From the NCBI GenBank assembly GCA_036478295.1, contig JAZGDW010000097.1, forward strand, positions 1-11,546: a stretch of 11,546 bases of DNA, read 5' to 3'. Positions 3-1,643 of this stretch are shown piece after piece. Within the stretch, counting starts at the first letter, position 1. Each line of letters starts with the position of its first letter. A program made the position numbers and the translations under genes. The notes below the pieces were generated by a model, which ran no database searches, had not been told where the DNA came from, and saw only the letters and a list, made by a program, of their open reading frames with translations. The DNA comes from Candidatus Krumholzibacteriia bacterium. GTDB taxonomy: Bacteria; Krumholzibacteriota; Krumholzibacteriia; WVZY01.

Positions 3-755
3 GCACCGCCCCCCACTACGGCCGGCAGCCCCCAACGCCAGTCAGTGCTCGATGACGCCACGGCAGACATCGACGGGTTTGGGGCCGTACTGGGTGTTCA
101 AATCCATCCGCATCCGCTGCTCCGAGCCGGTCTGTCGGTCCAGACCCCCATCCTGATAAATGTCGAACGCACCTCGATAGTCGAGAACATCACCCTGTTT
201 TTTAACGCCCTCGACCGCTTCGAGAGATCCGTCGTTACCACCTCCGTCGACTACAAGACTCCCGCCAGGGTAACAGGCGGGTTCAGCTTCAGTCCGCGCA
301 ATTTCCGTGTCGGCGTGGATGTGGAGTACGCGAACTGGACCCACGCCACGATCGACAACAAACTGATCAAGGACCGTAACCTACTCCCGGTTTTCAAGAA
401 AGTCGTATCCGTGAGAACCGGCCTCGAATACACCGTGCCAGGCGCACCGATCCGCTTGCGGGGAGGTTATGCGTTCATCCCGGACCCGCTCGAATACCTG
501 CCGTCCGACCGCATCGAAGATTGGTGCCGCCGCATGGGCACGGGCACCTGCCTGCGCCGTTTCGGTACGCTCCTCGAGAAGGCCAATATCGAAACCGAAC
601 GCCAGGTGGTTGCCGGCGGCATCGGCTTTCTGGTCGGAAATGCCCTGATGGTCGACACCTCGTACGAGTTCACGATAGGCAAGAAGACCATCCCGACGCT
701 CCAGGACGAGCGCACCAGCCAGCGCCTGCTCGTCTCCACGTCCTACCGATTCTAG
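3..755 (+). CDS. Outer-membrane beta-barrel protein, FadL/OmpP1/TodX-like (5'-truncated by window edge)
   Basis: The frame is open from position 3 with no stop before the ORF-track GTG at 45, and ends at TAG 753-755. It has alternating amphipathic beta-strands (GFGAVLGVQIHP, LRAGLSVQTP, RVGVDVEYANW, VRTGLEY, LRGGYAF, MVDTSYEF). It ends in a beta-signal with terminal Phe (LLVSTSYRF). The family assignment is by motif resemblance only. Confidence 0.7.
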   Translation, partial: APPPTTAGSPQRQSVLDDATADIDGFGAVLGVQIHPHPLLRAGLSVQTPILINVERTSIVENITLFFNALDRFERSVVTTSVDYKTPARVTGGFSFSPRNFRVGVDVEYANWTHATIDNKLIKDRNLLPVFKKVVSVRTGLEYTVPGAPIRLRGGYAFIPDPLEYLPSDRIEDWCRRMGTGTCLRRFGTLLEKANIETERQVVAGGIGFLVGNALMVDTSYEFTIGKKTIPTLQDERTSQRLLVSTSYRF

Positions 756-800: not shown

Positions 801-876
801 GTGTGACAGCATGCTGTCATTACGACAGTATACTGTCACTATGGTAGTATGCTGTCACTATGACAGTATGCTGTCA
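801..876. repeat. Tandem array of four 19-bp units, each containing a 16-bp palindrome (consensus ctaTGACAGTATGCTGTCA)
   Basis: 801-819 gtgtgacagcatgctgtca; 820-838 ttacgacagtatactgtca; 839-857 ctatggtagtatgctgtca; 858-876 ctatgacagtatgctgtca. The period is exactly 19 bp with no spacers. An overlapping palindrome catgatt-g-aatcatg follows at 875-889. Confidence 0.92.
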
Positions 877-919
877 TGATTGAATCATGCGTAGCACTCA
901 AACTCGGCGGGACCAGTCT

Positions 920-1143
920 GCGGTGCGCCGGTAGACTGTTGACGGACCCGTTGCGGGAACGAGCGAGGGGACGCCTGTTGGGTTGTTGACAGAGCCGTTG
1001 CGGGAGCGAGCGAGGATCACCCCGCGGAGCGGGGTAGCCGAGCGAAGCGGAGCGCGGCGAAGGAGGCAACCCAACAGGCGTCCCCGAACGGACAGCCGAG
1101 CGAAGTGGAGCACGGGTCAGGAGACAGTCCACCGGTGCGCCGC
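920..1143 (+). repeat. Nested palindromic (REP/MITE-like or structured ncRNA) element forming a long unbranched hairpin with a duplicated internal module
   Basis: Outer stem 920-940/1123-1143. Perfect 19-bp inverted repeat ggggacgcctgttgggttg (967-985) / caacccaacaggcgtcccc (1067-1085). Apical hairpin accccgc-gga-gcggggt (1019-1035). Direct repeats 937-968 vs 984-1015 (29/32 identical) and 1036-1068 vs 1094-1126 (27/33 identical). The structure is certain, but the class of element is not. Confidence 0.8.
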
Positions 1144-1151
1144 CCCAGAGA

Positions 1152-1643
1152 CTATTTCTTACGCGAAGTCCCGCCGAGCAGCGCCAGGTAGGCTTCGTCG
1201 AGCTTCTCCATCATGTCTTCACTCATACCGCCACCGGCTTCCATGATGCGGTCGTAGTACTCCTCGAGATAACGGCACAACGATACCTGCCGATTCTCGA
1301 TGTGACCGCTTATCAGCACCTTGAGTTCTTCCACGCGCTGCACGAAGTCCGGATCCTTAGATTCGATATCTTTGACGTTGTGAAAATATTGGTTGAGAAG
1401 ATTCATCCAGTAGGTATCGTGGTCACCGCCGTTGTCAAAGACGCAGCCGGGAGTCTCGGTGAGAAAACAGTAACCGTGGACGAAGTATGTGCACTGCAGC
1501 AGACCCTGCAGGAAGAAGCGCCGGAAGCAGTCTACGCTTGTTTCGTCCATCGTGCAGGGAAGCTGGCAGTCCCGGCACAGTGGTTCGGGGTCGCCACCGT
1601 AGACGAAGGCGTGCTGTGGTACTTTGATTTCTGGCCGCCCCAT
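1152..1643 (-). CDS. Hypothetical Cys-rich protein (163 aa), possible Zn or Fe-S binding N-terminal domain
   Basis: ATG at 1643 with AGGA about 12 nt upstream, and TAG at 1152-1154. It lies 42 bp downstream of rnc on the same strand and has GC3-rich codons like its neighbours. Cys at residues 23, 26, 30, 39, 51, 59, 67, then an acidic helical C-terminus. No family recognised. Confidence 0.75.
   Translation of the reverse strand: MGRPEIKVPQHAFVYGGDPEPLCRDCQLPCTMDETSVDCFRRFFLQGLLQCTYFVHGYCFLTETPGCVFDNGGDHDTYWMNLLNQYFHNVKDIESKDPDFVQRVEELKVLISGHIENRQVSLCRYLEEYYDRIMEAGGGMSEDMMEKLDEAYLALLGGTSRKK

What the first reader, a model, noticed from the sequence alone, without database searches (positions are those of the whole stretch)
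920..1143. Russian-doll hairpin: one structural module nested inside a second copy of itself, with internal covariation
Seen: the order is outer stem, A (937-968), 19-bp perfect IR arm, A' (984-1015), apical hairpin, B' (1036-1068), IR arm, B (1094-1126), outer stem. A pairs with B and A' pairs with B', giving one 224-nt unbranched rod. The differences between copies keep the fold: C947-G1116 becomes G994-C1058; A959-T1106 becomes G1006-C1048; T951-A1112 becomes T998.G1054; T939-A1124 becomes T986.G1066; and G945-C1118/A946-T1117 becomes tandem G992.A1060/A993.G1059. The one remaining difference, G944.A1119 versus A991.A1061, is a mismatch in both copies. The purine-rich non-Watson-Crick segments (UGAC/GGAG, GGGA/GGA, CGAGCGAGG/CCGAGCGAAG) are identical in both copies, while the connecting Watson-Crick stems differ completely in sequence. 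Inference: selection acts on a single-stranded fold of the plus strand that presents two copies of a protein-binding motif 47 nt apart. It could be an undescribed structured ncRNA or a REP/REPIN-like element that inserts into its own loop. I do not recognise it as any known Rfam family.
Basis: partly seen in the sequence, partly recalled or inferred. Interest (0 to 1): 0.82.

Follow-up and report, generated by a model that had tools for sequence, protein, structure and literature searches.

The report
Self-nesting DNA hairpin repeat, helper unknown
This rod is two copies of a small repeat found about 50 times between the genes of this bacterium, one inside the other; the repeat likely spreads as a folded single DNA strand and lands inside its own copies, and no enzyme that would move it was found.

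Summary
The nested rod is real, but it is neither a unique structure nor likely an RNA gene. It is two members of a ~120-base dispersed repeat (50-57 loci in this genome), found only in this bacterial order among the genomes searched and mostly absent from the orthologous site in relatives. The two layers match different copies elsewhere, so their 'covariation' is inherited subfamily difference. Outer layers are usually decayed; this intact double is atypical, probably recent, which argues against selection for two sites 47 nt apart. The fold is strand-specific (stem G-T 17 vs A-C 3; a covarying pair in the G-A ladder), and the loops are mostly DNA-type c(GNA)g/c(GNYA)g. In relatives the core is inverted between its arms at orthologous sites, and one arm here is overwritten by the other's complement, so template switching likely explains the copy-specific perfect stems. 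A second element replaces the loop in some copies. No RAYT, IS200, IS91, IS110 or reverse transcriptase was found here; the neighbouring GIY-YIG gene failed its test. Best reading: a REPIN-like, self-targeting single-stranded-DNA parasite, mover unknown. Two earlier scan notes likely describe this family on other DNA of this genome.

The parts
920..1143 (+). Two-layer nested repeat: outer copy split by a complete inner copy
920..936 (+). Outer left stem S1; pairs with 1127-1143
   Evidence: 17 of 20 Watson-Crick with the outer right arm vs 10 with the inner one
937..968 (+). Outer A module (left half of the tandem G-A ladder); its last G's overlap the start of the inner copy, the left junction
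   Evidence: with S1 it matches innermost modules of C286 and C204 at 35 of 38
967..1085 (+). Complete inner copy, the ~120-base unit (S2-A'-apical hairpin-B'-S2')
   Evidence: covariance-model hit of 92 bits, though this copy was a training sequence
984..1015 (+). Inner A module
1019..1035 (+). Apical 7-bp hairpin with a c(GGA)g triloop (loop 1026-1028); replaced by the second element C in long-centre copies
1036..1068 (+). Inner B module (right half of the ladder)
1086..1093 (+). Linker, inferred to be the decayed loop and 3' arm of the outer copy's own apical hairpin (right junction)
   Evidence: inference from the right-hand linkers of other nested loci, several of which keep the loop and 3' arm
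1094..1126 (+). Outer B module
1127..1143 (+). Outer right stem S1', 8 bases from the stop codon of the opposing gene
907..919 (+). Probable remnant of a third, outermost left unit
   Evidence: sequence resemblance to the C114 left linker; not scored
804..876 (.). Separate family: four 16-bp palindromes at a 19-bp period; 15 pattern clusters in the genome (2 are single units), 2 of them beside an A/B element
45..755 (+). Flanking gene (3' part; no Pfam or NCBIfam match), ending toward the element
1152..1643 (-). Flanking conserved hypothetical gene, ending toward the element; found in 33 of 36 genomes of the order

Best explanation
The 224-base rod is one ~120-base dispersed repeat sitting inside a second copy of itself; the repeat is likely a non-autonomous mobile element that is recognised as a folded single DNA strand by an enzyme not yet identified, and it likely inserts into the core of its own copies. 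SHOWN: the multicopy family, filled and empty orthologous sites, layers drawn from different subfamilies, decayed outer layers, a strand-specific fold, inverted cores and one overwritten arm. INFERRED: (1) the invariant ladder of 2-bp GC steps and tandem G-A pairs, capped by a c(GNA)g loop, is the recognition structure. (2) A new copy joins just after the A module's last bases. Its right end, which resembles the 5' arm of the apical hairpin, rejoins either there (full nesting, as in this window) or at the outer copy's similar right end (leaving an orphan left unit), which would explain the excess of left units. (3) The interrupted outer copy decays. (4) Polymerase template switching between the arms keeps each copy's stem complementary while the stems drift, and sometimes flips the core.
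For: Family: 57 clusters with A/B profiles (at least one weak false hit), 50-51 with arm profiles and 0 hits in the reversed genome at the same threshold. Empty sites: of 26 genomes with both flanking genes adjacent, 2 carry the element, 1 carries element C, and 23 carry neither motif in gaps of -4 to 120 bp; a second array is absent at the orthologous site in G001 and G004. Only 5 of 54 left units in multi-unit loci have their best match in their own locus. Inner intact vs outer decayed. Within-locus stem pairing 370 of 414 vs a mean of 271 and maximum of 312 in 5000 arm shuffles; G-T 17 vs A-C 3 after removing one recurrent wobble column. A ladder pair covaries: A-T 15, G-C 14, G-T 2, A-C 1. 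Loops: 63 c(GNA)g, 21 c(GNYA)g, 18 c(GNRA)g and 24 other of 126; GNA and GNNA are described as stable DNA loops, and CGAG blocks as sheared-G:A DNA stems (PMC10085684 passages; PMC3201870 abstract). Left units 81 vs right units 58; junctions. Core inverted at 5 orthologous sites; arm overwritten at C54.
Against: No mover was found: no Y1/RAYT, IS91, IS110 or reverse transcriptase in this 91%-complete genome; Y1 in only 2 of 41 genomes; no recurring transposase-like neighbour in 106 element regions or 65 metagenome matches. No excised or circular form was seen, and no target duplication or conserved target word was evident by eye. Junctions vary by several bases and some could descend from a few ancestral composites. 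Some units are local duplications (within-locus identity 0.769 vs 0.736 between loci). Copies are related, so the p-values overstate. 18 of 126 loops are GNRA, and G-T excess and G-A tandems also suit RNA. Only 6 of 11 multi-layer loci show a clear outer-to-outer stem match by my reading.
Confidence: 0.62

Rival explanations
1. No dedicated enzyme: the repeat spreads and rearranges by host replication errors alone (template switching, slippage and gene conversion at short homologies), and the stable single-strand fold merely promotes those events.
For: No transposase found. Core inversion, arm overwriting, and core deletions at a 7-base direct repeat shared by A and B (C301, C124) are the expected products (PMC8604942, start of abstract in listing; PMC8794818 passages). 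Junctions with element C fall at short homologies.
Against: Entry into empty intergenic gaps with no homology is unexplained. Arm-to-arm copying would erase the mismatched ladder, yet it is highly conserved and covaries. Left junctions cluster within about 10 bases of one point.
Confidence: 0.2
2. A host-selected structured RNA (small RNA or mRNA 3'-end element) whose G-A ladder binds a protein; nesting supplies extra sites.
For: The RNA fold is very stable and favours the GA-rich strand in 29 of 29 copies; G-U excess; copies sit near stop codons (36 of 42 right ends face one, median 21 bases); 3 of 12 family genomes carry a copy behind the same gene.
Against: Between co-directional genes the GA-rich strand is the mRNA strand in only 5 of 20 cases here and 13 of 25 in relatives; the core is inverted at orthologous sites; most orthologous sites are empty; outer layers decay; 84 of 126 loops are GNA or GNYA rather than GNRA; no terminator-like site.
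Confidence: 0.1
3. A relic of an IS200/IS605- or RAYT-driven family whose Y1 enzyme is lost or visits on other mobile DNA.
For: Anatomy resembles Y1 substrates: a strand-specific single-stranded DNA hairpin with essential mismatches (PMC8266576 passages). Y1 fragments exist in 2 of 41 genomes.
Against: Those two Y1 loci carry no A or B motif. GTAG precedes B in 24 of 32 copies here but only 6 of 62 aligned sequences. Strain-level differences suggest recent activity.
Confidence: 0.06
4. The nesting is an assembly artefact of a repeat.
For: Draft genome in 316 contigs; many copies lie at contig ends; no laid contig spans the whole stretch.
Against: Each layer has its own matched left and right stems (17 and 19 of 20 vs 10-11 crosswise); 11 loci have two or more units on both sides; a related contig joins the outer B arm to the flanking gene (record 8).
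Confidence: 0.02

Closest known systems
REPINs / REP-BIME with RAYT (TnpA-REP): PMC3337134 (parts 1-2 of 3 read), PMC3116915 (passages), PMC8266576 (passages)
   Same: Extragenic ~90-120-base hairpin repeat; copy-specific yet self-complementary stems; strand-specific single-stranded fold with conserved mismatches; occasional insertion into or beside other copies; location near gene ends.
   Different: No RAYT found; no conserved GTAG tag. The invariant part is an asymmetric non-Watson-Crick ladder at the closed end with the variable stem outside, whereas REPINs carry two inverted REPs at the ends with the variable part inside. Nesting is common here and up to six left units deep.
CGTC-tagged REPs (PMC3733652; abstract and first eighth of the main section read, consensus figures not visible)
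   Same: Palindromic extragenic repeats that 'apparently lack a dedicated transposase'; preference for co-directional and convergent gaps.
   Different: No terminal CGTC tag in the consensus; the unit is ~120 bases, not 20-40.
ERIC/IRU imperfect palindromes and PATEs of IS200/IS605 (recalled; seen only in search listings)
   Same: Roughly 120-base imperfect intergenic palindromes with internal insertions (ERIC, recalled); short hairpin-ended derivatives without transposase (PATE, recalled).
   Different: No sequence comparison was possible; no parent insertion sequence or open reading frame between A and B arms was found.
Quasi-palindrome template switching (PMC8604942 listing; PMC8794818 passages)
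   Same: Arm homogenisation, both-side stem changes and inversion of the centre.
   Different: It explains the stems, not dispersal to empty sites or the conserved mismatched ladder.

Membership tests
REPIN-RAYT | Many extragenic copies forming hairpins with copy-specific complementary stems | tested here: met
REPIN-RAYT | Cognate RAYT (Y1 HUH) gene in the genome, flanked by the repeats | tested here: not met
   0 Y1 and no RAYT over cut-off in G000; 0 of 4 element-rich relatives; 2 of 41 with Y1, neither flanked. G000 is 91% complete.
REPIN-RAYT | Two inverted copies of one REP with conserved 5' GTAG | tested here: not met
   A and B are not reverse complements; GTAG precedes B in 6 of 62 aligned sequences
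REPIN-RAYT | Excision of the unit seen in population reads | tested here: inconclusive
   only assembled contigs of related strains could be laid
MITE (class II) | Conserved terminal inverted repeats, target-site duplication and a cognate transposase | tested here: not met
   terminal stems are the most variable part; no duplication evident by eye in the flanks; no transposase-like neighbour. DDE families were not searched genome-wide.
PATE / IS200-IS605 derivative | Ends shared with a parent IS200/IS605 element and a conserved target tetranucleotide | tested here: not met
   no parent found; no conserved flank word evident by eye; definition recalled
Rfam structured RNA | Match to a curated covariance model | tested here: not met
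Structured RNA (any) | Discrete transcript of the folded strand | not testable with these tools
   no RNA run among the holders listed
Kink-turn | Three-base bulge followed by tandem G-A pairs (recalled) | tested here: not met
   ladder loops are 2x2, 2x3 and 4x3 in the predicted fold
ERIC/IRU | Sequence similarity to the enterobacterial consensus | not tested
   no reference sequence was obtained from a tool

The most novel reading that the evidence does not exclude
A class of self-targeting single-stranded-DNA replicators, moved by an enzyme outside the Y1, Y2, IS110 and reverse-transcriptase families. The enzyme would read a non-Watson-Crick G-A ladder with a GNA loop as both donor signal and target, and the arms would be rewritten from each other. 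Element C and the ladder repeat would form a mosaic of mutually targeting parasites using it.
Probability: 0.25. Interest if true: 0.75.

Novelty: new variant of a known kind. Interest (0 to 1): 0.44.

Why it matters
How REP-like repeats without a RAYT spread is open (PMC3733652 abstract). This family offers a tractable case: restricted to one order among the genomes searched (12 of 12 and 7 of 23 genomes in its two families, 0 of 115 in seven other families), with mapped junctions, filled and empty sites and flipped alleles. It also shows a trap for structured-RNA discovery: strong 'covariation' can come from repeat subfamilies and arm-to-arm copying. If the mover is new, it would be a structure-guided single-stranded-DNA recombinase.

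Tried and rejected
GIY-YIG helper: the only GIY-YIG match in G000 abuts one array, but none of the 29 fetched relative loci (of 73 matches listed outside G000; one is a UvrC-length frame) carries A or B, and the gene is syntenic with an empty site in G001 and G004; rejected. Y1, RAYT, IS91, IS110 and reverse-transcriptase searches were blank in G000; IS110 and reverse transcriptase were not searched in relatives. A HUH-motif screen of my own gene calls gave 14 weak motif hits, none followed up or convincing. No autonomous version with a gene between A and B arms. Viral contigs: 0 matches for two patterns; plasmids: 0. No RNA holder listed. Replication-strand bias: 12 vs 23, p 0.09, inconclusive. 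Local tandem duplication as the main source of layers: rejected (5 of 54). RNAalifold on 62 mixed sequences recovered only the ladder and apical stem (11 pairs, 5 with both-side changes), since the outer stems do not align across genera. Literature searches for the lineage plus repeats and for the core motifs showed no description in their listings.

Full report
OBSERVATION. The described letters, pairings and fold are present. The rod is far beyond chance (z -10.5 as RNA, -7.2 as DNA) and favours the + strand. Rfam has no match. Small corrections: a short side hairpin near 1086-1096, stems that align at 9 of 18 columns rather than being unrelated, and a probable remnant of a third left unit at 907-919.

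IT IS A DISPERSED REPEAT. Profiles of A and B find 57 clusters in the 3.5-Mb genome. Arm profiles find 50-51 clusters with no hit in the reversed genome at the same threshold. The unit is about 120 bases: variable stem S, module A, a centre, module B, complementary stem S'. Architectures run from single units to six left plus two right units. A covariance model from 62 sequences (61 of 66 listed loci plus the window; five atypical loci left out) hits 12 of 12 genomes of family f1, 7 of 23 of f2 and 0 of 115 in seven other families. A strict core pattern hits 8 of 208 phylum genomes, all f1. The 46 named genome loci with the exact core are labelled Latescibacterota, Krumholzibacteriia or unclassified, except one short Methylomirabilota contig. 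Viral contigs and plasmids gave nothing.

IT COMES AND GOES. In the same-genus genome G001 the gap between the two flanking genes is 66 bases against 396 here. Of 30 orthologous loci fetched (33 matches), 26 have both genes adjacent: 2 carry the element (G000, G006), 1 carries element C, and 23 carry neither motif. G011 has a copy behind the same gene with a different neighbour. A second array is missing at its orthologous site in G001 and G004. By my own gene calls, none of 43 two-sided loci lies between divergent genes; 23 are convergent, 15 have the GA-rich strand antisense and 5 sense. Relatives give 13 convergent, 12 antisense, 13 sense and 1 divergent.

WHAT THE NESTING IS. The window's outer layer is closest to innermost modules at C286 and C204, and the inner layer to modules at C77, C255, C241 and C224 (35 of 38 each). 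Only 5 of 54 left units have their best match in their own locus. Right stems pair best with a specific left stem in nested order: here 17 and 19 of 20 against 10-11 crosswise; clear in 6 of 11 multi-layer loci, tied or absent in 5, by my reading. Innermost ladder halves are intact in 16 of 18 loci, outer ones in 4 of 30, so an intact double is atypical and probably young. At left junctions the inner copy starts within about ten bases of the end of the outer A module. At several right junctions the outer copy keeps the loop and 3' arm of its old apical hairpin. The unit's right end resembles that hairpin's 5' arm. I infer that rejoining there gives full nesting, and rejoining at the outer right end leaves orphan left units (81 left vs 58 right).

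WHICH MOLECULE FOLDS. In 23 ungapped innermost copies (32 cores; 28 with standard hairpin length and full flanks; 5 more dropped as out of register), stems pair at 370 of 414 positions against at most 312 in 5000 arm shuffles. There are 81 both-side changes, and G-T outnumbers A-C 17 to 3 without one recurrent wobble column. In relatives G-T is 39 and A-C 19 (44 of 52 loci). A pair inside the mismatched ladder covaries (A-T 15, G-C 14, other 3), which arm copying cannot produce. Copies are related, so significance is overstated. Loops are c(GNA)g in 28 of 32 copies here. Across 126 hairpins they are 63 GNA, 21 GNYA, 18 GNRA and 24 other; some loci may be counted twice across collections. GNA triloops with C-G closure, GNNA tetraloops and CGAG sheared-pair blocks are described as stable DNA motifs (PMC3201870 abstract; PMC10085684 passages). 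This favours single-stranded DNA without excluding RNA.

WHY STEMS ARE PRIVATE YET PERFECT. Among 51 flank-homologous pair rows, 8 (five sites) have the core inverted, 42 are in the same orientation and 1 is unclear. One site is a clean flip: L132 vs L145/L171, flanks 91-92% identical, arms nearly the same, one change on both arms. At the other four the stems differ, so separate insertions are as likely. At C54 a left arm is the reverse complement of a right arm over 21 bases, erasing the mismatches; C301 and C124 lost the core at a short direct repeat shared by A and B. These are the known products of template switching and slippage (PMC8604942 listing; PMC8794818 passages).

A SECOND ELEMENT. 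A ~79-base cassette C has matches in 44 of 208 phylum genomes (the weakest are short and near the threshold). It stands alone, lies beside the repeat, or replaces its apical loop, cleanly so in G006.

NO MOVER FOUND. See Tried and rejected. The genome is 91% complete and DDE transposases were not searched genome-wide, so absence is not shown.

COMPARISON. It works like a REPIN: all-different but complementary stems and insertion into or beside other copies are reported for REPINs (PMC3337134; PMC3116915), and mismatch-dependent single-strand recognition for TnpA-REP (PMC8266576). It fails membership on the RAYT, the GTAG tag and the two-inverted-REP layout. I found no description in the listings; subscription papers, figures and supplements were not seen. 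One passage of bioRxiv 10.1101/2021.07.10.451892 added nothing. Earlier scan notes e1-3629239 and e1-9775389, from other pieces of this genome, likely describe the same family; I saw only their short summaries.

VERDICT. Real, a new variant of the REP/REPIN kind, interest 0.44. The Russian-doll form is a by-product of self-insertion, not a designed two-site structure. The open and interesting part is the missing mover.

Noticed in passing
window 804-876; also C26, C30, C41, C69, C80, C107, C112, C124, C129, C136, C203, C316: Separate family of 16-bp palindromes in tandem at 19- or 22-base periods: 54 units in 15 clusters vs 1 in the reversed control. Absent from the orthologous gap in G001.
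   Followed up: partly
L211 (G000:C45:56849-56954) and L216-L226: Element C, a ~79-base hairpin cassette with sharp ends, more widespread than the A/B repeat (44 of 208 genomes); no Rfam match; inserts at the apical loop.
   Followed up: partly
G000 C124:4216-5390, C241:6155-7268, C267:9415-10707, C79:10709-12315: Four oppositely oriented element pairs enclose small secreted-protein paralogues, two of which carry the C-terminal TWG-like tag in my screen; could be composite cargo or just gene-end preference.
   Followed up: no
L259 (G024), L260 (G022), L264 (G035): At the window's orthologous gap these f2 genomes hold shorter or diverged GA-rich hairpins that may be relatives of the ladder.
   Followed up: no
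L230 and L239 (G011): The two flanking genes are separated in G011 and each has an element behind its stop codon, as if the element marked a rearrangement break.
   Followed up: no
window 1152-1643 (-): Cysteine-rich hypothetical gene downstream of RNase III, 63-90% identical across 33 of 36 genomes of the order, with no Pfam or NCBIfam match.
   Followed up: no
G000:C150:5675 onward: An array ends directly beside a tRNA-like sequence (seen).
   Followed up: no
run X2 record 10: A related strain's contig covers 775-958 and then enters another left unit, suggesting a different nesting depth at this site.
   Followed up: no
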